Below, one piece after another: positions 1,745 to 12,140 of a stretch of 32,000 nucleotides of DNA. The DNA comes from Candidatus Dasytiphilus stammeri. GTDB taxonomy: Bacteria; Pseudomonadota; Gammaproteobacteria; Enterobacterales; Enterobacteriaceae. The stretch covers positions 283,621 through 315,620 of the forward strand of contig CP145879.1 in NCBI GenBank assembly GCA_041944835.1. Reading direction: 5' to 3'. The notes below the pieces were generated by a model. That model did not search any database and was not told where the DNA came from. It was given only the letters and a program-made list of their open reading frames with translations. Made by a program: the position numbers and the translations under genes. Each line of letters starts with the position of its first letter. Position 1 is the first letter of the stretch.

Positions 1745-2704
1745 TTAATATTCTATAACTACAGAAACCGTATCGGAATAAATTCCAGATGGAAGATCTC
1801 TTTGGATTGGATTTATCATAGCTTTATAATATATAAATTGGGGAATTCCAGTTCCAATTAATTTCTTTTTACTATTTTCATTCCAAATAAAATTATTATC
1901 TGGATAATAAATATTATATTCAATATAATGATTATTATTATCACTTAATCGACGCCATAGATTATTAATATTTTTACCTTCAGTAAACCAAAGTTTATAA
2001 TTTTCTTTTTTTGTACAACTTACACTCATATTAAGTTTTAGAGGTTTAAATTGACTTACTAATGCATGACTTCCAAAATTTATATCAGAAATAGTATTAA
2101 TTACACAATCTTTCTTTATGATGGATTGAACGGTTATGAAGGTTGAACCTTTTCCATTCCAAGATGATAAACATACTAAACTACCCAATCTACATATAGA
2201 ATATTCCCAATTAATTTGAATAATATCTTGATATACTCCAGCTCGTACATTGGCATTAGGAAGAGTTTTAATATAAATAGGAACTCTAGAATTAGTGGAG
2301 GAAAAAATCATAGAGATTAAATTAAGATTTTTATAGTCAATAGAATCTCCGATTCTATAAGCATATTGATAATTTTTATCAGGATAAATCATATAAGGAA
2401 TGGAATCTCCTGAACCATCTAAATTTTTCAATTGCATGTTATAAGATGTTCCAATAATCTTACCTTTAATTTTATTATTAGTTAGTAAGGTCATGCTTAG
2501 TCCAGAACATGCTAGTCCAGAGTTACCTTGTGCTTTTATGCTGCCATTTAAAACTGCAAAAGAAGTCGAGTCTCCTAATTCTACTTTTCCATCTGATAAC
2601 CAACAATTAGCTGTTACTCTATTACAAAAAAATAATTTTATTATTACCAATGCTAATGTAATAATAAAAATGGTTTTTTTTAAAATATAACTATTTACTG
2701 ACAA
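1745..2704 (-). CDS. Two-domain fimbrial tip adhesin (CsuE-like) built from two tandem SCPU-like modules; last gene of the chaperone-usher operon
   Basis: The 319-aa ORF has an N-terminal signal peptide (KKTIFIITLALVIIKLFF..VTA). Module 1 ends AGVYQDIIQINWEY and module 2 ends SGIYSDTVSVVIEY, which is the C-terminal beta-strand signature of SCPU pilins. Each module has a Cys pair (NCW..LACSG and KDCVIN..VSCTK). The apparent TTG start at 2704 overlaps the usher stop by 10 nt. Confidence 0.7.
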   Translation of the reverse strand: MSVNSYILKKTIFIITLALVIIKLFFCNRVTANCWLSDGKVELGDSTSFAVLNGSIKAQGNSGLACSGLSMTLLTNNKIKGKIIGTSYNMQLKNLDGSGDSIPYMIYPDKNYQYAYRIGDSIDYKNLNLISMIFSSTNSRVPIYIKTLPNANVRAGVYQDIIQINWEYSICRLGSLVCLSSWNGKGSTFITVQSIIKKDCVINTISDINFGSHALVSQFKPLKLNMSVSCTKKENYKLWFTEGKNINNLWRRLSDNNNHYIEYNIYYPDNNFIWNENSKKKLIGTGIPQFIYYKAMINPIQRDLPSGIYSDTVSVVIEY

Positions 2705-5091
2705 ACTTGTTTCCCTAAATTCAATATTCCATTAAATGTTTTTATTGGTAATCTTACATGACAAGATTTTCCATTATCTGATCGAGTAATTGTGAGTTTA
2801 GGATATTTTTGGTTAAATCCTTCAATCCAAACTTGTCCCTGCCAACCTAACCAAGTTACTATCGATGTTCCTTTTATTTTAACTATACTACCATTGGGTA
2901 AATAATTACCTTTTTTATCGACTATACTAAACAGTAGTGCATTAAATTTATGAATATCAAACTCTATTAAATATCCACTATGTTCTTTGATAGGTATTTT
3001 TTTGGTGGTTTCTGTTGCAATTACATCGACTGGTAATTTAAGAGGATTTATATCAAATTTTGATCTATACCATCCAGTAATTGTTGGAATTAATAAATAT
3101 CCCAACCGGTTTGTTTTACCTACAAACTGATTTTCATAAAATACTGGGATTTTACCATATCCCTTAGTAGATACTAATACAAAAGCATCATAAATAGGTT
3201 GAGTGACATAGATATGTCCTGCTATATTAACTAGCGATCCCTCAAATTCAATCCAGCTATTTTCATTATTATAAAAATCACCAAAAATTCCAAATCTATT
3301 TTCAAAATATCGATTTTTCCAAAAAAAATTAGCTTCATGATATTTATTATCTTTTGCATTTTGAGAAACCATTAAATTCCAACCAATTTCTGCATTATTA
3401 TTTGTGGTAATTTTATTACTCCAGATTTGACTTGAATTAATATTTTCATTGTCATCTACAGTTGATGATAATGAAGTATTACCATTACCCCAAAAATTCA
3501 AGGGTAAAGTTAACATTAATTGGGCATTAAAATTAGGATGATTGGTTTTTTTGTTTATAGAAGCTAATAAATTTATAGTTTTTGGCAATGTAATACTATA
3601 AGAGAGATTAAAAAATCGATTTGTCTTACCTTTATTATTCCATGTATTTATTAATCCTAAACTCAAATTTCCATAATTTCCAAAATTTATGCTTCCACTA
3701 AGATTATTTACATGCCTCTTGGCTTTTGAAAATTTATAATCAGACAAATTACTATAATTATAATTGCTGAAGCTATGTAAAGCACTTAAATTAAAGTATG
3801 TATTATTATAATTATAACCAATACTTATTTTTTGACCCCGATTATTTGGAATTAATGATGATTTATAAAAATGACTTTTAATATTATTATTAGTGATACC
3901 ACTTCTACTCCAAGATATATTAACAACTCCTAACATCATTGGTTTGATATTGGCACCCACACCATAATTTAGTAAATCTCGATTTACTTCCATTTTTCCT
4001 TCTAAAGTCAACCAAGATTTTATTCCATGACGCATCATACCACTAGCAATTAGATGACTATAATTCATTGAATTTATACCGTAATCTTCACGCAATAGTC
4101 CTAATGAGAGACTAAAATTAGTTAATCCTTTCTTTAATAGTTCACTAGTAACATAAAAGGGTATTAGATTAATTTTCTTCTTATTTGGAGAAAAAATAAC
4201 TATTTTTGCTTTACTAGCACCTTGTAAATTAGGAATTGCATCTATTAAAATGAAAGGTCCAGGATTAATCTTCTTTGCAGACATTATTTGAGAATTATTA
4301 ATATAAAGATCAACTTTACTTGGTTCAACTGTCTGACTATAAAAAGTAGGTAATGGATATGTAATTAGATCGGGACATAATGAAAAATTACGGAATAATT
4401 TAATGCCACCTATCCTTAGAGGAATAGATCCAAATAATGTATCAGTAATACTATCTCCTATTATATAACTTACTAGATGTTTTTCATCGTTTATATCCCA
4501 ATGAGTATCATAGCGTATAAAGGGTTTAGATAATTCATTACTCCAACTACTTGTATTTGACAAAACCCCCCACTTACTAAATACACGTAATTCGGACCAA
4601 AACGTTAAAAATCCAATGTTATATTTATATGAATAAAATTGTCTATGAAAATAAAAATTATAATTAAATAACCATCCAAAGTTACTTTGACTAGGTATAT
4701 TTTTTTCAAGTAATCTTTTCTGATTACTTAAAAATATTTTTTGCTTTGGAAACCAAAAAAATGGTACGTTGATGATTAATTTTTGCGATTTAATCTCATA
4801 TTGAATATGTACATCTTTGATTTCATCTATAGCAATAAAATTGGAAAGCTTTATATTATTTGGAATAATAAGTCCAGCAGATCTAAGTTCTTTCAATCTA
4901 ATATAATAATGACCATTATTTAAATTAACCCTAATAATTTTTCCTGTATCTATTCCATTAAGAACTAATTCTAGATAAAGCTGATTAGCAGCAGGTATTA
5001 CTTCTAAGTAATTACCTAATGCAAAGTTTATTGAAAGTAAAAATATAATCAATAAAAAAAAAATTTGTTTAATAAATTTATATCCATTCAA
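2695..5091 (-). CDS. Outer-membrane fimbrial usher (FimD/PapC/CsuD family)
   Basis: The 798-aa ORF has a signal peptide (FFLLIIFLLSINFALG). Its size, its aromatic, Asn/Ser/Gly-rich beta-barrel-like composition, and its position between a PapD-like chaperone and an adhesin gene all fit an usher. The apparent TTG start lies 3 nt after the chaperone stop. Confidence 0.8.
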   Translation of the reverse strand: MNGYKFIKQIFFLLIIFLLSINFALGNYLEVIPAANQLYLELVLNGIDTGKIIRVNLNNGHYYIRLKELRSAGLIIPNNIKLSNFIAIDEIKDVHIQYEIKSQKLIINVPFFWFPKQKIFLSNQKRLLEKNIPSQSNFGWLFNYNFYFHRQFYSYKYNIGFLTFWSELRVFSKWGVLSNTSSWSNELSKPFIRYDTHWDINDEKHLVSYIIGDSITDTLFGSIPLRIGGIKLFRNFSLCPDLITYPLPTFYSQTVEPSKVDLYINNSQIMSAKKINPGPFILIDAIPNLQGASKAKIVIFSPNKKKINLIPFYVTSELLKKGLTNFSLSLGLLREDYGINSMNYSHLIASGMMRHGIKSWLTLEGKMEVNRDLLNYGVGANIKPMMLGVVNISWSRSGITNNNIKSHFYKSSLIPNNRGQKISIGYNYNNTYFNLSALHSFSNYNYSNLSDYKFSKAKRHVNNLSGSINFGNYGNLSLGLINTWNNKGKTNRFFNLSYSITLPKTINLLASINKKTNHPNFNAQLMLTLPLNFWGNGNTSLSSTVDDNENINSSQIWSNKITTNNNAEIGWNLMVSQNAKDNKYHEANFFWKNRYFENRFGIFGDFYNNENSWIEFEGSLVNIAGHIYVTQPIYDAFVLVSTKGYGKIPVFYENQFVGKTNRLGYLLIPTITGWYRSKFDINPLKLPVDVIATETTKKIPIKEHSGYLIEFDIHKFNALLFSIVDKKGNYLPNGSIVKIKGTSIVTWLGWQGQVWIEGFNQKYPKLTITRSDNGKSCHVRLPIKTFNGILNLGKQVCQ

Positions 5092-5094
5092 ATA

Positions 5095-5871
5095 TTAAAA
5101 TTCTGGCATTAATTGTTGAAACTGCAAATTATCGTTAACTTTAGCTACTAAAAATCCTTTAGAGAATATAAATGGCGTGGATAAAGGCAAAAAAATTTCA
5201 GCTTGAGGTAAAATATATGCAAACAATCCATTATTAATGATATGTTTGATTTTTCCATCTAAAAACATAATATCAGTAACTTTAGCATGAACTAACCCTT
5301 TATTATGGATTATTAATAATTTTTTACCATTTTTTGTTATTATACGATAATATAATATCGGATGAGTGGCTGGCCTTAGATGGTTTAGATGTTGATAATC
5401 CGGTTTAGTCCAAATATTCTTACCATCTATAAATAATGGTATGGAATAACGCATTTTAAAATTTAAACCGATTTTATTTTTAGTAGGTTCTATAGTTTTA
5501 GGAATTTCATCAATAAGTATTCGATAACTCCATTGGTGGTATTGAGGAGGAGTTAAAATTTTTACTAGTCTAATTAATTGCTTATTTTTAGGTAAAATTT
5601 CAACCATGGGTGGACTAACAATTATTTCCTGTTGTTCTGAAAGCTGATTCTCATAATTTTTTTGTTTCCAACTAAAAACTCGAATTTGTACTAAAATAGA
5701 ATTAGAATTATGGTTTTCTAACCATAATTCAGCCGCATTTTGATCCGCTTCAATTACCGGATCAAGCGGCCAAATTAATATTGATGAATTAGCTAAAAGT
5801 GAAGTATTGCATATCATTAAATATGATGCTAATATCACTAGCCAAGAAAATATTGTTCTTTTTGTCTGCAT
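5095..5871 (-). CDS. Periplasmic fimbrial chaperone (PapD-like, CsuC type)
   Basis: The 258-aa ORF has a signal peptide. It carries motifs I recognise from Csu-type chaperones: ILIWPLDPVIEA, VQIRVFSWKQ, IIVSPPM, SYRILIDEIP and FKMRYSIPLF. Confidence 0.85.
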   Translation of the reverse strand: MQTKRTIFSWLVILASYLMICNTSLLANSSILIWPLDPVIEADQNAAELWLENHNSNSILVQIRVFSWKQKNYENQLSEQQEIIVSPPMVEILPKNKQLIRLVKILTPPQYHQWSYRILIDEIPKTIEPTKNKIGLNFKMRYSIPLFIDGKNIWTKPDYQHLNHLRPATHPILYYRIITKNGKKLLIIHNKGLVHAKVTDIMFLDGKIKHIINNGLFAYILPQAEIFLPLSTPFIFSKGFLVAKVNDNLQFQQLMPEF

Positions 5872-5889
5872 AATCTTTTTTTTTAATAC

Positions 5890-6459
5890 CTAATAACTAA
5901 TAGTCATCGTTACTATATCCTCATACTGACCGGCTTCTGGTAAAATATTAGAATTGAATAAACGTGCATAAATATAATATTTATTAACTATTCCTAATAT
6001 AATTATAGATTTACTATTACCACCATTAATATCATTTCCCCAGATTATACTATGTGCAGCGTCTTGAAATAATTGATACCGTAACATTTTATTTCCAGAT
6101 TTTTTCTTTAGTAAGCGTCCCTGACTGATATTACCCATTCGATTTATTCCACTATCTAATGCTAAATTTACATTAACACCTGGAGTACATTTTAATACTA
6201 TTGATCCTAAATCATAACTAGAAAGAGTATCTATAGGTTGTTGAATAGAAGTAACATTACCAAAATTAATAGTATTTAGATGAATGGAATTGTGATTTAA
6301 TTTACAACCTTTAACTATATTTGCATGAACCTGAAAATTTCGGCTATTACTAGAAGAATAAGTTTGGTTATCTGCTTGAATACTTACGACAAAGAAGACC
6401 TCTAGTAGTATAACCATACCTATTCGTAATAGTAGTAAAATTAAATATTTGATGAGCAT
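5890..6459 (-). CDS. SCPU (spore coat U) domain fimbrial subunit, minor/second pilin
   Basis: The 189-aa ORF has a signal peptide ending SIQA. Family hallmarks are GCKLN...INFGNV, LKCTPG, YQLFQDAAH..IWG and the C-terminal AGQYEDIVTMTISY. Confidence 0.8.
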   Translation of the reverse strand: MLIKYLILLLLRIGMVILLEVFFVVSIQADNQTYSSSNSRNFQVHANIVKGCKLNHNSIHLNTINFGNVTSIQQPIDTLSSYDLGSIVLKCTPGVNVNLALDSGINRMGNISQGRLLKKKSGNKMLRYQLFQDAAHSIIWGNDINGGNSKSIIILGIVNKYYIYARLFNSNILPEAGQYEDIVTMTISY

Positions 6460-6504
6460 AAAACTATAATGATTATAAAGTAGTCATAATTTTATATCAT
6501 TTCC

Positions 6505-6999
6505 TTACCAACTAACTGTAACAGTTACTGTATCGGTATAAGTCCCAGCTTTAACTGATGGTTGTTTTGGGATGCGTCCATAAATCGTTAAAGCAGTTTC
6601 TTTTCCGGTTCCAGCTTGAGATAATTTACTGTCCCAGAGTTTTGTATGGGCAGCATTTTGGTACAAATCATATTTAATATAATCTCCTTGTTCTCCTTTC
6701 ATACGTCTTTGTTTTCCATCTGGTTGTGATCCATCATTTAAACTTACATAATAACTTAATCCTTTTGTACAATTTAATCCTATAGATCCTCCAGTTCCCG
6801 TTGACTGAGCATCAATTACATTATTAAGATTTGGATGTTCTCCAAAATCTATATTACCAAAATGCATTAAGGTCCCTCGTGTCACTTCACAACCATTACC
6901 GATAATTATTTGTACATCTAAATTATTTTCTATTTGTCCTCCTGCATAAACATAAGCAGAAAAAAATAGAATTGATAGTATTGATAATACTTTTATCAT
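6505..6999 (-). CDS. SCPU domain fimbrial major subunit (CsuA/B-like), first gene of the operon
   Basis: Hallmarks are GCEV...IDFGEH, LNCTKG, YDLYQNAAHTKLW and the C-terminal AGTYTDTVTVTVSW. I place the start at the internal ATG 6999..6997 (MIKVLSILSILFFSAYVYAGG, a clean signal peptide). That ATG is preceded by AAGGA 8 nt upstream, whereas the ORF-track start at 7044 adds 15 non-signal residues and has no RBS. Confidence 0.8.
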   Translation of the reverse strand: MIKVLSILSILFFSAYVYAGGQIENNLDVQIIIGNGCEVTRGTLMHFGNIDFGEHPNLNNVIDAQSTGTGGSIGLNCTKGLSYYVSLNDGSQPDGKQRRMKGEQGDYIKYDLYQNAAHTKLWDSKLSQAGTGKETALTIYGRIPKQPSVKAGTYTDTVTVTVSW

Positions 7000-7070
7000 A
7001 TTGATTATCCTTTTAGTTATTTCATCATATATGGATATGATCAATGAATGATATAAATCTTATTCTTTAA

Positions 7071-7124: not shown

Positions 7125-8054
7125 TTAAGATGATGGATGAGGTTTTTTATTATAATATGGAATTATATTACGTAAAAAAGGAAGATTAATATTTAATATA
7201 ATTAAATCTTGATTATATTTAAATATTTTTTTATAAGCCTGCAAAGTACGAACAAAACGATAAAAATTAGTATCGTGATTAAAATAAGTTGCAAATAGTT
7301 TAGCTACTAATGCATCAGCTTCTCCATGTATAACATGTGCTTGTTTTTTAGCTTCAGCTATAGTATATATTACTTCATAATCCGCAGCCGCACGAATTTT
7401 TTCAGCTTTTTCTTTACCTTGATAACGATGAAGAAGAGCATCTGAATCCAGTTCAGCACGCATTCTATTATATATAGAATCTGAAACTTCATTAGGTAAA
7501 TTTATTTTTTTGATACGTACATCTACTACTTGAATTCCTAATATATTTTGTGCTAGTTGTTCAGTATCATATGTATTAATAATACTTTTATTTAATTTTT
7601 GACGCAATATTGAAATTAACTTTCCTTGTGAATCATTTACAATATCTTTTAGATTTAAATGTCCTATTTCAGAACTCAATTTATCACTAAATGTTTTTCT
7701 AAGAAAATTTTCTACTTGAGAAATTTCTCCTCCTGTACTAACATACAAACGATTAAGATCAGTGATACGCCATTTTATATATGAATCTACAATTATATTT
7801 TTCTTTTCCTTGGTTACAAATTTCTCACTTTTATTTTCTAGAGTTTGAATACGGATATCCAAACCTTTTACTTTTTCAATTAATGGTTTTTTAAAATGTA
7901 ATCCGGGGGATAATACTACTACATTATGATTAATATCTCGTAAAACCTTACCAAAATGTAATAAAATTCCTCGTTGACCTTCTTGGATAATAAAAAAGGA
8001 TGAGTAAAGTAATATTAATATTACTATTAATAAAAATGATAAATATTTACGCAT
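7125..8054 (-). CDS. hflC: FtsH modulator HflC (SPFH/band-7 protein)
   Basis: The 309-aa ORF is colinear with E. coli HflC. Matching segments are EGQRGILLHFGKVLRD, PGLHFKKPLIE, FVTKEKKNIIVDSYIKWRI, VVDVRIKKINLP and IYNRMRAE. Confidence 0.93.
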   Translation of the reverse strand: MRKYLSFLLIVILILLYSSFFIIQEGQRGILLHFGKVLRDINHNVVVLSPGLHFKKPLIEKVKGLDIRIQTLENKSEKFVTKEKKNIIVDSYIKWRITDLNRLYVSTGGEISQVENFLRKTFSDKLSSEIGHLNLKDIVNDSQGKLISILRQKLNKSIINTYDTEQLAQNILGIQVVDVRIKKINLPNEVSDSIYNRMRAELDSDALLHRYQGKEKAEKIRAAADYEVIYTIAEAKKQAHVIHGEADALVAKLFATYFNHDTNFYRFVRTLQAYKKIFKYNQDLIILNINLPFLRNIIPYYNKKPHPSS

Positions 8055-8059
8055 GAATT

Positions 8060-9235
8060 TTATTCCTGATTAGTGCGTATGGCATTAGCTTTACGTTTAT
8101 TCAAAATATCATCGGGTTTTTTATAGTTAGTACTAATATTATTAGATTTTTTATTACTCATTACATCAGAATTCATATTAGTTGTTATAATTTTATTAGA
8201 TCGAGAATTTTTTATTTTTTCTCTAGGAGAAAAATTTTTAAAGTTCAAGGGTATAAATAAAATATTATGAGTATTAGAATCAACCAGTATCTTATGGACA
8301 TGACTCAACATATATTCCATAGTCTGAATATATAATCGTTCTTTAGTAAAGTCAGAAGCTCTTTTATATTCAAGTAGAACTTTCGCAAATTCTGTTACTT
8401 CTCCTTGAGCTTCTAATATAGTACGTGTTTTATAAGCCTGGGCATTTTCAATTATGCGTTGTGCTCTACCACTAGCTTGTTTTTTTACTGCATTAGCATA
8501 AGCTTCTGCTTCACGAATATATTGTTGTTCATTTTCTCGTGCAACCATCGCATCATTAAAAGCAGATTCTACTTCTTCAGGCAGCAGACTAGATCCTTGC
8601 AAATTTATATCTACTAATGTAATTCCCATATGATATGGATCAATAATTTGTTCTAATTCATGTTTAATCTTTCGACAAATAATAGTACGTCCTTCAGTAA
8701 GAAGAGTATCCATACTCAATTTTCCAATTACACCACGCAAAGCACTCTCAGTAGCTTGCCGTAAGCTATCATCTGGATTAGTAACGGAAAAAAGATAATT
8801 TATCGGATTAGTAATCTGATATTGTACATTAATTCTTACCTTAACGATATTTTCATCAGAAGTTAAGATTCTTCCTGTAGCTACTATTTCACGTATCGCT
8901 TCTACATTTATAGGATATACTCTATCAATAAAAGTTAATTTCCAATTTAAACCTGGCATAACTATATGACTAAATTTACCAAACCTAGTTATTACAGCTC
9001 GGTCAGACTCTTTAATGGTATAAAAACCAGTGCTTAGTAAAATTATCAGAGTAATAATCATTATTATTAAAAATAAATTAAAGTTTAAAACTGGATTATT
9101 TTTATTGTGATTACCTCTTATTAGATAAATAAATTTTTGAAATTTACTCGATCCATTTTCATCAAATGTATTTTTATTTTCCCAAGGATCACGAGTTTTT
9201 TTTATACTTTTTCCAGAAGATTGATATAGATTCAT
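8060..9235 (-). CDS. hflK: FtsH modulator HflK
   Basis: The 391-aa ORF matches E. coli HflK at GFYTIKESDRAVITRFGKFSH, PGLNWKLTFID, LTSDENIV, SLRQATESALRGVIGK, ARENEQQYIREAEAY and ILEAQGEV. Confidence 0.93.
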   Translation of the reverse strand: MNLYQSSGKSIKKTRDPWENKNTFDENGSSKFQKFIYLIRGNHNKNNPVLNFNLFLIIMIITLIILLSTGFYTIKESDRAVITRFGKFSHIVMPGLNWKLTFIDRVYPINVEAIREIVATGRILTSDENIVKVRINVQYQITNPINYLFSVTNPDDSLRQATESALRGVIGKLSMDTLLTEGRTIICRKIKHELEQIIDPYHMGITLVDINLQGSSLLPEEVESAFNDAMVARENEQQYIREAEAYANAVKKQASGRAQRIIENAQAYKTRTILEAQGEVTEFAKVLLEYKRASDFTKERLYIQTMEYMLSHVHKILVDSNTHNILFIPLNFKNFSPREKIKNSRSNKIITTNMNSDVMSNKKSNNISTNYKKPDDILNKRKANAIRTNQE

Positions 9236-9324
9236 TTTTATTATACCAAATATAAATATAACCTAAATTGATAATTATTTATTACTACTCTAAAGATTAT
9301 AAAAACCAGCCGGAGTATTGGACT

Positions 9325-9421
9325 CTAGTAAGAAAAAGATTTTGATGGAACTACAATACAAATAGCATGTTTATATATCATTTTAATAACACTTTTTAAA
9401 ATAAAATTGCCCTTTAGCCAT
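9325..9421 (-). pseudogene. hfq: hfq relic: start codon plus Sm2 motif retained, Sm1 region deleted, 1-nt frame disruption
   Basis: The minus strand from 9421 reads atg gct aaa ggg caa = MAKGQ, the Hfq N-terminus. This frame stops after 12 codons. The frame shifted by +1 nt (starting one base 3' of the ATG) reads WLKGNFILKSVIKMIYKHAICIVVPSKSFSY*. Compare E. coli Hfq ..[27 protein letters not shown]. The 97-nt relic sits where hfq belongs, between miaA and hflK. Confidence 0.75.
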
Positions 9422-9532
9422 TCTTTTTATTTCCTTTTCACATAATTTTATATTTATACATAGAGAATTAAAAATTCCATAAGAATAGGTGAATTAAAAA
9501 TTCATGGTATAAACTCGATTACTATAAAATAA

Positions 9533-10465
9533 CTATACCCCGATCTTAATAAGGATATTTTTACATGCTAAATTCAGATTCTCATTATCAAGCCAGTAAG
9601 TATTTTTCCATTTACGTAACCAAGTGAACTGATGTTTAGCTAGACTACATGTTGCATGAATTGCTTGTTTCAACATTGCGTCATAATTAATTTTTCCTTC
9701 AAGATAAGACCACATTTGACGATAACCAACACAACGAAGAGAAGGCATATTTCCATTTAAATCTCCTCTATCAAATAATTTTTGAACCTCATCTTGAAAA
9801 CCTTCATTTATCATTCTAAACAAACGTTGTTCAATAAGATTATATAATTTAAATCGACATGAAGGAGAAATTACAAATTGTATAATATCATATTCTAAAT
9901 CATTATCATTTTTTATTCGATTTAATGCAGTTAGTGTATTACCAGAAATTAAACAAACTTCTATTGCTCGTGAGATTCTTTGTCGATCATTGCAATTAAT
10001 TCTTTTTGCGGCAATTGGATCTAATTGAGATAATTGTTCGTGAATATTTTTCCATCCTTGTTGAGTTGCTTGTTTGTAAATATATTCACGTATCATGTAA
10101 TTAGATGCAGGTAAGAGTGATAATCCATTCATTAATATTTTAAAATAAAGCATAGAACCACCTACTAATAAAGGTAATCTACCTTTTTTAGTAATAGAAT
10201 CCATTTTTTTTATAGCATCTTTCCTAAATTCTGCAACTGAATAAGTTTCTGAAGGATCACGAATATTCAATAAATGATGTGGAACTTGACAAAGTTGTTG
10301 ATTTGTAGGTTTAGCTGTACCAATGTTCATTTGTCTATATACCATAGCTGAATCAACACTTATTACTTCTATTGGAAGTAATTCACTTAATTTTATAGCT
10401 AATTCAGTTTTTCCAGAAGCTGTGGGACCCATTAAAAAAATGGATTTAGGTAATTTATTTTTCAT
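9533..10465 (-). CDS. miaA: tRNA dimethylallyltransferase MiaA
   Basis: The 310-aa ORF has the P-loop GPTASGKT, plus [18 protein letters not shown] and GGSMLYFK motifs. It overlaps the 3' end of mutL by 11 nt, consistent with the mutL-miaA arrangement. Confidence 0.93.
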
Positions 10466-12098
10466 AATTTTTTTTGAGTACGCTTAATGCTGAAGTAATA
10501 TCAACGCGTTGTAAAAAGTGCAGAGGTGGTGAGCTAATTAAATTAGGACAAAATTTTACTAGATCATAAAATAAATTTATAGCTTGTGAAAGGTTCCATT
10601 TTGGGTTTTTATCAATATTTTTTACTAAAAAATTGATAATTTGAATTTCTGATATTTCGGTTTGTGTCGAAAGATAAGTTAAAAGTGCCGAAAATACCTC
10701 AGAAAAATTTTTAGAACGTAATATTAAAGGTATTGAACGAACCAGTAATAGATTATTATCTATTACTAAATGAATTCCAATTTTTTTAAAAATATAAGAA
10801 TTATTATAAATAATATCTAATATTTTTTTTTTTATATTAAATCGTAATGGAATTAATAATGGATAATTTTTTTTTTTAAAATTTGATTTAAGTTGTATGA
10901 AAATTAAATATCTATGAGCTACGGATAATGCAATCAATATTAGTCCTTTTTTATCTTCTACTAATGCGATATCTTCTTTCAGTATGCTTAGTACTTTTCC
11001 AAACTTTACAATTTCATTATTATCTAATTCTAATCGGTGAAAATTTTTGGTTTTAAAAAAAGGTAATTTATCTTTTTTTTCATCAATCGTTAGATTGAAT
11101 AAATTTCGTTTCTTATATTCTTTAAGTTTATTTGTTAATGCATTATAAATAAATTCGTATATTAATCTTGATTGATAAAATCGTACATCCTTTTTTGTAG
11201 GATGTACATTAATATCTATTTCTTTTGGAGAAATATTTAAATATAAAATAAACTTAACTGGATTTTCATTACCTATGATATCATAATATGCTTGACGAAT
11301 TGCATGAAATAACAGTCTATTTTGTACTATTCTTCCATTCACATAAAAATAGTGTAAATAATTTGGCAGATTAGATTCATTTTTATAGGATACCCATCCA
11401 TGTAATTGGATTTCTTTAGATTGCCAATGAATACTAAATATATGAGACATAAAAATATTTCCGCAAATTGAAGCAATTCTCTGTTCCGGTTCAATGGTAT
11501 TTAGATATTGTCTAATTAATTTTCCATTATGTGTAAGAGTAATTGCTACATCAAATCGTGCTAATGCTATACGACGTATTATTTCATCTATATGTAAAAA
11601 TTCCGTCCTTTCAGTTCGCATAAATTTCCGACGCGCTGGAGTATTATAAAATAAATCACATACCTCTACAGTGGTACCAATAGGATGAGCTACGGGGATA
11701 AGGTTGATTTTTTGATTCTGCATGGTATATGTTTGCCATGCTTCTTTTTGGATTTTAGTTCTTGATATTAATTTTAATCGTGAGACTGAACTAATACTTG
11801 CCAATGCTTCTCCACGAAAACCCAAACTAGTAATAATATTTAAATCATCAATAGTGGATATTTTACTAGTAGTATGATTATCTAATGCTAATAGAATTTC
11901 ATCCTTATTAATTCCGCAACCATTATCACGAATACGGATCAATTGTATACCGCCTTTATTAATTTCGATATTAATCGTATTAGCTCCAGCATCTAAGCTG
12001 TTTTCTAATAGTTCTTTTACTACTGAAGCAGGACGTTCTACTACTTCTCCAGCCGCGATTTGATTGGTAATCTGTATAGGTAATTTTTTTATCGACAT
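10455..12098 (-). CDS. mutL: DNA mismatch repair protein MutL
   Basis: The 547-aa ORF has a GHKL ATPase N-terminus: [46 protein letters not shown] and NVHPTK.DVRF. It is shorter than E. coli MutL in the linker and C-terminal region. Confidence 0.93.
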
Positions 12099-12140
12099 AG
12101 TTATTATTATTTATATAACTTATATGCAATAAGTTATAAA

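What the first reader, a model, noticed from the sequence alone, without database searches (positions are those of the whole stretch)
9325..9421. hfq reduced to a 97-nt relic that keeps the start codon and the Sm2 motif
At the position of hfq in the miaA-hfq-hflX-hflK order, the minus strand reads ATG GCT AAA GGG CAA (MAKGQ, identical to the Hfq N-terminus) followed directly by Hfq residues from about F42 onward. The frame shifted by +1 nt gives FILKSVIKMIYKHAICIVVPSKS, compared with E. coli [26 protein letters not shown]. About 36 codons are therefore missing, covering the N-terminal helix and the Sm1 motif. A single-nucleotide frame disruption lies in the T run after CAA. The MAKGQ frame stops after 12 codons. 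The relic cannot encode a functional Hfq. It records a loss of the sRNA chaperone recent enough that the sequence is still recognisable.
Basis: seen in the sequence. Interest (0 to 1): 0.6.

Follow-up and report, generated by a model that had tools for sequence, protein, structure and literature searches.

The report
Dead hfq remnant in beetle endosymbiont
The stretch is a real, non-functional leftover of the RNA-chaperone gene hfq in the tiny genome of a beetle endosymbiont. This is an ordinary case of endosymbiont gene decay, made somewhat more instructive because sister symbionts show the same gene intact, half-erased in a different way, or almost gone.

Summary
The window comes from the 476,890-bp genome of "Candidatus Dasytiphilus stammeri" from the beetle Dasytes alpigradus. 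Between miaA and hflK the minus strand keeps the hfq ribosome-binding site, the start codon and codons 1-5. A net 116 nt is then missing, which removes the N-terminal helix and Sm1. The 3' half of hfq follows in the +1 frame.

The remnant is longer than reported. It runs from 9421 to about 9275, which is 147 nt rather than 97, and reaches the ancestral stop codon.

The match is far above chance:
- blastn against the intact orthologue gives E = 3e-20 genome-wide.
- 0 of 2000 shuffles reach the observed protein score.
- MAKGQ occurs only once in the six-frame genome.

No second hfq, hflX or ProQ exists in the genome.

Only one of the 16 species genomes in the genus keeps an intact, conserved hfq. 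This is the 486,045-bp genome, the size of the D. niger symbiont. One sister keeps the complementary 5' half with stop codons, and two sisters keep only about 35 nt. Eleven others have nothing recognisable.

How recent the loss is cannot be shown. The remnant is as diverged as neighbouring third codon positions. Hfq loss in insect endosymbionts is already known, so this is a new instance of a known kind. The scan has not noted an hfq relic on other DNA.

The parts
9533..10465 (-). miaA, intact upstream neighbour
   Evidence: TIGR00174 MiaA, E = 2e-97, above the cut-off.
9422..9445 (-). Retained hfq leader with the Shine-Dalgarno-like AAGGAAAT
   Evidence: It aligns almost base for base with the leader of the intact hfq in G004.
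9405..9421 (-). hfq 5' end: the start codon plus codons 1-5 (MAKGQ)
   Evidence: 16 of 17 nt are identical to nt 1-17 of the G004 hfq. MAKGQ is unique in the six-frame genome.
9405..9407 (-). Deletion junction with ATT microhomology. About 115 nt of hfq (helix and Sm1) is missing here.
   Evidence: The two blastn segments (hfq nt 1-17 and nt 130-261) overlap by 3 nt. The pairwise alignment agrees.
9383..9385 (-). TAA that ends the 12-codon MAKGQ frame
   Evidence: Translation.
9275..9407 (-). hfq 3' half (nt 130-261 of the intact orthologue), in the +1 frame relative to the ATG and decayed
   Evidence: blastn gives 76% over 134 nt, E = 3.4e-20 genome-wide. An nhmmer hfq DNA profile gives E = 7e-6.
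9340..9381 (-). Sm2 core, MIYKHAICIVVPSK (Hfq residues 53-66)
   Evidence: 39 of 42 nt are identical to G004. S60C and T61I change residues that are invariant in the 16 Hfq sequences listed. The Pfam Hfq match covers positions 46-62.
9325..9327 (-). Premature TAG in the Sm2 frame
   Evidence: Translation. The intact orthologue reads on for 15 more codons.
8060..9235 (-). hflK, intact downstream neighbour. hflX is absent between the remnant and hflK.
   Evidence: TIGR01933 HflK, E = 3e-101. No HflX match above the cut-off anywhere in the genome.

Best explanation
Window 9275-9421 (minus strand) is a vertically inherited, non-functional remnant of hfq. It lies in the genome of Ca. Dasytiphilus stammeri, the bacteriome symbiont of the beetle Dasytes alpigradus.

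Shown:
- An ancestral hfq sat between miaA and hflK, as it still does in the sister genome G004 (486,045 bp, the size of the D. niger symbiont).
- In this lineage a roughly 115-nt deletion, joined at an ATT microhomology, removed codons about 6-43 (N-terminal helix and Sm1) and shifted the frame.
- Further small indels, two replacements at invariant Sm2 residues and a premature TAG followed.
- No Hfq can be made and no other copy exists.

Inferred:
- The remnant is carried passively on the miaA-hflKC transcript, because no terminator-like site lies between the genes.
- It is being erased by the deletion bias of a drifting, repair-poor endosymbiont genome.

Unresolved: inactivation happened after the split from the G004 lineage. 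Whether it happened once in the ancestor of G000, G008, G014 and G015, or separately in each, cannot be told. The large deletions are lineage-specific.
For: - Synteny is mutL-miaA-[remnant]-hflK-hflC.
- Nucleotide homology to the intact orthologue gives E = 3.4e-20, and 16 of 17 nt match at the start.
- Shuffle and genome-tile controls give 0/2000 and 0/1601.
- The Hfq models find no other copy.
- G004 has an 86-aa Hfq in the same place that passes the NCBIfam equivalog cut-off (134.9 against 95 bits). Its core is 60/66 identical to free-living relatives.
- G014 keeps hfq nt 14-151 with stop codons and lacks Sm2. G015 and G008 keep only the last ~35 nt.
- The tree is (G004,(G000,G008,(G014,G015))) with 100/100 support.
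- Three contig sets from the source sample are identical over 8900-9900.
- The genome was identified by its size in PMC11191362 and by the names of its relatives.
Against: - No RNA data could be listed, so transcription and lack of translation are inferred.
- The 42-nt Sm2 core is better conserved (93%) than the rest of the remnant. This could hint at residual constraint, but the excess is marginal once the choice of segment is taken into account.
- The three DNA runs come from the same sample as the assembly, so they are not independent resequencing.
Confidence: 0.93

Rival explanations
1. The remnant is not neutral junk. The retained leader, the 12-codon MAKGQ mini-ORF or the Sm2-coding stretch is kept because it now serves hflKC expression. 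It might act as a promoter or 5'-UTR element, as an upstream ORF for translational coupling, or through a +1 frameshift product.
For: - The ribosome-binding site and start codon are almost unchanged compared with G004.
- The Sm2 core is 39/42 identical.
- There is no terminator between miaA and hflK.
- The last ~35 nt of hfq survive in all four hfq-less sisters.
Against: - G015 and G008 run hflKC with spacers of 73-101 nt that lack the leader, the ATG and the Sm2 stretch. Six other species have spacers of 36-82 nt.
- Promoter-like sites are no more frequent than in shuffles.
- No Rfam family matches the region.
- A 32-aa product without Sm1 cannot form an Hfq ring (established knowledge of the Sm fold).
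Confidence: 0.04
2. hfq was inactivated only once and long ago, in the common ancestor of the G000, G008, G014 and G015 symbionts. On this view the relic records an old loss that is being erased slowly, not a recent one specific to this species.
For: - All four descendants lack a working hfq.
- The two remnants are equally diverged from the intact gene (75-76%), about the same as third codon positions of miaA (79%).
- All four share the same junction between the hfq 3' end and the hflK leader, whereas G004 has about 150 nt more there.
Against: - No inactivating lesion shared between the G000 and G014 remnants is visible in the parts that overlap (nt 1-17 and nt 130-151).
- The large deletions do not overlap, so they happened after the split.
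- The stretches compared are too short for dating.
Confidence: 0.4
3. The deletion is an assembly artefact and the real genome carries an intact hfq.
For: None was found. The only general ground is that metagenome-derived assemblies can collapse sequence.
Against: - Logan contigs built separately from three runs (word depth 82, 30 and 28) span the site with no differences or gaps.
- The remnant also carries substitutions at invariant residues, extra indels and a premature stop, which a collapse would not create.
- Sister genomes show comparable decay.
Confidence: 0.01
4. The resemblance to Hfq is a chance match in AT-rich spacer DNA.
For: The protein-level hit on its own is weak (Pfam 17.1 bits, below the cut-off).
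Against: - blastn gives E = 3.4e-20 genome-wide at the exact syntenic site.
- 0/2000 shuffles and 0/1601 genome tiles reach the observed score.
- MAKGQ is unique in the genome.
- An nhmmer profile hit gives E = 7e-6.
Confidence: 0.005

Closest known systems
Intact hfq of the sister Dasytiphilus genome G004 (486,045 bp, the size published for the Dasytes niger symbiont)
   Same: It occupies the same position between miaA and hflK and has the same leader and start. It is 16/17 identical over nt 1-17 and 76% identical over nt 130-261. hflX is likewise absent.
   Different: G004 has an open 86-codon frame with complete Sm1 and Sm2 and passes the NCBIfam Hfq equivalog cut-off. The window copy lacks about 116 nt, is frameshifted and has a premature stop.
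Hfq of free-living Enterobacterales (Pfam PF17209, NCBIfam NF001602/TIGR02383)
   Same: The N-terminal MAKGQ and the Sm2 core (M-x-YKHAI-x-x-VVPS) are recognisable.
   Different: The N-terminal helix and Sm1 are missing. Residues S60 and T61, which are invariant in the relatives, are replaced. The score is below the family cut-off, so this is not a member as a protein.
Loss of hfq in Buchnera and many other Gram-negative insect endosymbionts (Sun et al. 2002, as reviewed in PMC4972996)
   Same: It is the same outcome in the same kind of genome: the sRNA chaperone is dispensable in a host-restricted, highly reduced gammaproteobacterium.
   Different: Here the loss is caught in progress within one genus. 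There is one intact copy, two complementary remnants, two ~35-nt stubs and eleven genomes with nothing. It is not mentioned in the Dasytiphilus genome paper or in its held supplements.
E. coli amiB-mutL-miaA-hfq-hflX-hflK-hflC superoperon (Tsui and Winkler, 1990s; from my own knowledge)
   Same: The gene order tsaE-mutL-miaA-[hfq]-hflK-hflC lies on one strand without a terminator-like site between miaA and hflK.
   Different: amiB and hflX are deleted, and hfq is a remnant. Co-transcription is inferred here, not shown.

Membership tests
Functional Hfq (PF17209 / NF001602) | Uninterrupted ORF of about 70-110 codons | tested here: not met
   The ATG frame stops after 12 codons. The Sm2 frame has no start of its own and ends at a premature TAG.
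Functional Hfq (PF17209 / NF001602) | N-terminal helix plus Sm1 motif (residues about 7-40) | tested here: not met
   A net 116 nt is missing between codon 5 and Met53. The HMM match covers only positions 46-62.
Functional Hfq (PF17209 / NF001602) | Sm2 motif YKHAI | tested here: met
   MIYKHAI is present in the +1 frame. The following invariant residues S and T are replaced by C and I.
Functional Hfq (PF17209 / NF001602) | Score above the curated family cut-off | tested here: not met
   PF17209 scores 17.1 bits against a cut-off of 27. TIGR02383 gives no match at E <= 10.
Orthologous hfq pseudogene remnant | Syntenic position between miaA and hflK | tested here: met
   Flanking genes were identified. 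The intact orthologue lies in the same place in G004.
Orthologous hfq pseudogene remnant | Significant nucleotide homology to an intact orthologue | tested here: met
   blastn gives E = 3.4e-20 genome-wide. nhmmer gives E = 7e-6.
Orthologous hfq pseudogene remnant | No functional paralogue elsewhere in the genome | tested here: met
   Two Hfq models were run over the complete single-contig genome, rated 100% complete. tblastn was also run.
Orthologous hfq pseudogene remnant | Not expressed as protein, or transcribed only passively | not testable with these tools
   No RNA run could be listed.

The most novel reading that the evidence does not exclude
The Dasytes-clade Dasytiphilus genomes form a natural allelic series for Hfq dispensability: intact, 5' half, 3' half and stubs. 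Their gene sets are otherwise nearly identical. G004 differs from G000 only by hfq, talA and nupC on one side and hdfR on the other. All of them keep rpoS and csrA, and none has a detectable DsrA, ArcZ or ProQ. If the well-conserved Hfq of the D. niger symbiont is still functional, it must be working without the classical Hfq-dependent sRNAs. This would point to an sRNA-independent role, for example in rpoS translation, ribosome or tRNA biogenesis, or RNA turnover. That role would be testable by comparing sister symbionts.
Probability: 0.25. Interest if true: 0.45.

Novelty: new member of a known kind. Interest (0 to 1): 0.22.

Why it matters
Taken alone it matters little. Hfq loss is a familiar step of endosymbiont genome reduction, and the remnant has no plausible function.

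Its value is comparative. In one recently described beetle-symbiont genus, hfq has been lost at least twice, and three times with midpoint rooting. Inside one clade it is caught at every stage of erasure. A near-isogenic sister species still keeps a conserved copy.

This gives a small, clean example of how deletion bias dismantles a dispensable gene, through non-overlapping deletions of 115-180 nt at short repeats. It also offers a possible handle on what Hfq still does in a genome without recognisable Hfq-dependent sRNAs.

The remnant should be annotated as a pseudogene, so that the spacer is not mistaken for regulatory DNA.

Tried and rejected
- **Three-way MAFFT alignment.** Aligning the spacers of G004, G000 and G014 misplaced the 5' end of the G000 remnant. 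I used pairwise alignment and blastn segments instead.
- **TIGR02383.** This model found nothing at E <= 10. The Pfam model did find the remnant.
- **Programmed frameshifting.** I considered it because TTT-AAA-AAG resembles the dnaX slippery site. A -1 slip there would not enter the Sm2 frame, which needs +1. The product would in any case lack Sm1. Rejected.
- **Dating.** I compared the remnant's identity (76% overall, 93% in a 42-nt core) with miaA third positions (79%). The stretches are too short and the composition too biased, so the result is inconclusive.
- **RNA evidence.** No RNA run was listed.
- **Rfam.** The region 8900-9900 gave no match at E <= 1.
- **Partners co-retained with hfq in G004.** ProQ is absent in all five genomes, CsrA and RpoS are present in all five, and ArcZ and DsrA are absent in all five. 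A whole-genome ORF comparison gave only talA and nupC besides hfq.
- **Remnants in the other 11 species.** None were found by tblastn, blastn or nhmmer.
- **The Dasytiphilus genome paper.** Its text and held supplements contain no mention of hfq.
- **Two possible alignments of 9236-9300.** This stretch can be aligned either to the hfq 3' end or to the hflK leader of G004. Both carry a TA[G/C]TAATAAA motif. I favour a deletion between these two repeats in the ancestor of the four hfq-less species, but I could not polarise it without an outgroup.

Full report
**What is in the sequence.** On the minus strand, 9421-9383 reads MAKGQFYFKKCY followed by a stop. The frame that starts at 9405 reads FILKSVIKMIYKHAICIVVPSKSFSY followed by a stop. 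The flanking genes on the same strand are nnr, tsaE, mutL (10455-12098), miaA (9533-10465), then a 297-nt spacer, then hflK (8060-9235) and hflC (7125-8054). The window has about 27% G+C.

**Where the window comes from.** It is G000:C1:283621-315620 of a single-contig genome of 476,890 bp. The nearest named relatives are "Candidatus Dasytiphilus stammeri" chromosomes. The genome table of Wierz et al. 2024 (PMC11191362) lists 476,890 bp for the symbiont of Dasytes alpigradus. That paper describes 20 eroded genomes of 437-601 kb with ongoing gene loss. It does not mention hfq in its text or held supplements.

**Is the match more than chance?**
- The Pfam Hfq model hits one relevant place in the whole genome. 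This is the relic, at model positions 46-62 (E = 0.0019, 17.1 bits, below the 27-bit cut-off). TIGR02383 finds nothing.
- The intact Hfq of a sister genome finds the relic by tblastn at E = 0.001. Its gene finds it by blastn at E = 3.4e-20 (nt 130-261, 76% over 134 nt, window 9407-9275). Nt 1-17 match 16 of 17 at 9421-9405.
- The best six-frame local alignment score of the spacer against Hfq is 67-71. Dinucleotide shuffles give 29-31 ± 4. None of 2000 shuffles and none of 1601 genome tiles of the same size reach the observed score.
- MAKGQ occurs once in the six-frame translation of the genome.
- An nhmmer profile built from hfq genes of relatives also hits the spacer (E = 7e-6).

**Anatomy.**
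- The leader with AAGGAAAT and the start codon are nearly identical to those of the intact orthologue.
- The ATG and the Met53 codon are 40 nt apart here and 156 nt apart in the orthologue. This is a net loss of 116 nt.
- The two blastn segments overlap by ATT at 9407-9405. This fits one deletion of about 115 nt at a short microhomology (CAATTATTA against GATTTTATTA in the intact gene). A few small indels lie just downstream.
- Because the deleted length is not a multiple of three, the 3' half lies in the +1 frame.
- The Sm2 core (9381-9340) is 39/42 identical to the orthologue. It carries S60C and T61I at residues that are invariant in the 16 Hfq sequences recovered from relatives.
- A premature TAG follows at 9327-9325.
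- Homology continues to the ancestral stop region at about 9275. The remnant is therefore about 147 nt, not 97.

**No rescue copy.** There is no second hfq. There is no hflX anywhere; only the GTPase domains of other genes match, below the cut-off. There is no ProQ. CsrA is present.

**Assembly.** Logan contigs built separately from three DNA runs span 8900-9900 with zero differences and zero gaps, at word depths 82, 30 and 28. The three runs come from one sample, probably the source of the assembly. This argues against an assembly artefact but is not independent resequencing.

**Comparative picture.** The genus holds 16 species genomes of 0.4-0.6 Mb.
- Only G004 has an Hfq match above the cut-off. 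G004 is 486,045 bp, the size published for the D. niger symbiont.
- In G004 the order is mutL-miaA-hfq-hflK, again without hflX. Hfq is 86 aa and passes the NCBIfam equivalog cut-off (134.9 against 95 bits). It is 60/66 identical to free-living relatives over the core, so it looks functional.
- G014 matches the D. aeratus symbiont record found. It keeps hfq nt 14-151 at 75% identity, with an insertion after codon 5 and several stop codons, and it lacks Sm2. This is roughly the complement of what the window keeps.
- G015 (D. virens symbiont) and G008 (Psilothrix symbiont) have spacers of 73-101 nt in which only about 35 nt resembling the hfq 3' end survive.
- The other 11 species show no remnant by tblastn, blastn or nhmmer. 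Their spacers are 36-82 nt in six species and 197-394 nt in five.

**Phylogeny and number of losses.** A tree from MiaA plus parts of HflK and MutL (960 columns) gives (G004,(G000,G008,(G014,G015))) with full support. The other 11 species fall in two further clades. Since hfq was present in the ancestor of the Dasytes clade, it was present in the ancestor of the genus. It was therefore lost at least twice, or three times under midpoint rooting. G014 and G015 are 94.7% identical in miaA but differ by about 180 nt of remnant, so erasure is still going on.

**Timing.** The miaA genes of G000 and G004 are 85% identical overall and 79% identical at third positions. The remnant is 76% identical to the intact gene, and the G014 remnant is 75% identical. 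Neither remnant looks fresh. No shared lesion is visible in the short parts where the two remnants overlap, and their large deletions do not overlap. All four hfq-less species share the same junction between the hfq 3' end and the hflK leader. This junction could come from a deletion between two TA[G/C]TAATAAA motifs that are both still present in G004. One old inactivation followed by independent erasure, and several separate inactivations, both remain possible. I put about 0.4 on the former.

**Function.**
- There is no terminator-like site between miaA and hflK, and promoter-like sites are no more frequent than in shuffles.
- No Rfam family matches the region.
- No RNA run could be listed.
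- Sister genomes express hflKC from much shorter spacers that lack these pieces. This argues that the remnant is dispensable.
- A +1 frameshift product would lack Sm1 and could not form an Hfq ring. The dnaX-like TTT-AAA-AAG would shift to the wrong frame.

I conclude that the remnant is passive, and I infer that it is co-transcribed with its neighbours.

**Wider context.** Loss of Hfq in many Gram-negative insect endosymbionts is established (Sun et al. 2002, as reviewed in PMC4972996). The kind is therefore known, and this is a new, unreported instance.
- A whole-genome ORF comparison shows that G004 and G000 are nearly identical in gene content. G004 alone has hfq, talA and nupC, and G000 alone has hdfR.
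- rpoS is retained in all five Dasytes-clade genomes. According to the paper's supplement it is retained in the strains listed there.
- DsrA and ArcZ are not detectable in any of the five, including the genome that has hfq.
- This leaves open what the conserved Hfq of the D. niger symbiont does.

**Verdict.** It is an ordinary pseudogene remnant of low to moderate interest, with a neat comparative series.

Noticed in passing
G000:C1:401227-402063 (outside the window) and the same gene in G004, G008, G014, G015: rpoS scores above its curated cut-off (437-450 bits against 378.7) in all five Dasytes-clade genomes of about 0.46-0.49 Mb. hfq is dead or gone in four of them, and DsrA and ArcZ are undetectable in all five. 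Retention of the stationary-phase sigma factor without its usual Hfq/sRNA translational activators is unusual for genomes this small.
   Followed up: partly
L033:2484-2615 (G014, D. aeratus symbiont): This is a complementary hfq remnant. It keeps nt 14-151 (helix and Sm1) at 75% identity, with an ~8-nt insertion after codon 5 and several stops, and it has lost Sm2. The sister genome G015 (94.7% miaA identity) has deleted this piece as well.
   Followed up: yes
G004 whole genome (L063-L087) compared with G000: The two genomes differ by very few intact genes. G004 alone has talA (L068:16236-17183), nupC (L083:13563-14762) and hfq. G000 alone has hdfR (G000:C1:108580-109419).
   Followed up: partly
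L040, L042, L044, L045 (G009, G003, G007, G011), miaA-hflK spacers: One clade keeps non-coding spacers of 360-394 nt at the hfq position with no recognisable hfq or hflX signal (nhmmer, blastn, tblastn). They may be remnants degraded beyond recognition, or something else.
   Followed up: partly
L035:964-1190 (G004) compared with window 9236-9300: G004 carries two similar motifs, TA[G/C]TAATAAA, one at the hfq stop and one about 150 nt downstream in the hflK leader. The four hfq-less sisters have a single copy with the intervening ~150 nt missing. This fits a repeat-mediated deletion shared by all four.
   Followed up: partly
window 9236-9324 and 12099-12140: hflX is absent at its usual place and genome-wide. 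Only 42 nt separate tsaE from mutL, where amiB sits in E. coli.
   Followed up: partly
window 2695-7044: ORFs downstream of hflC give weak fimbrial-chaperone hits (E = 1e-5). I did not pursue this here.
   Followed up: no
window 10455-10465: mutL and miaA overlap by 11 nt on the minus strand, which is consistent with translational coupling in the retained superoperon.
   Followed up: no
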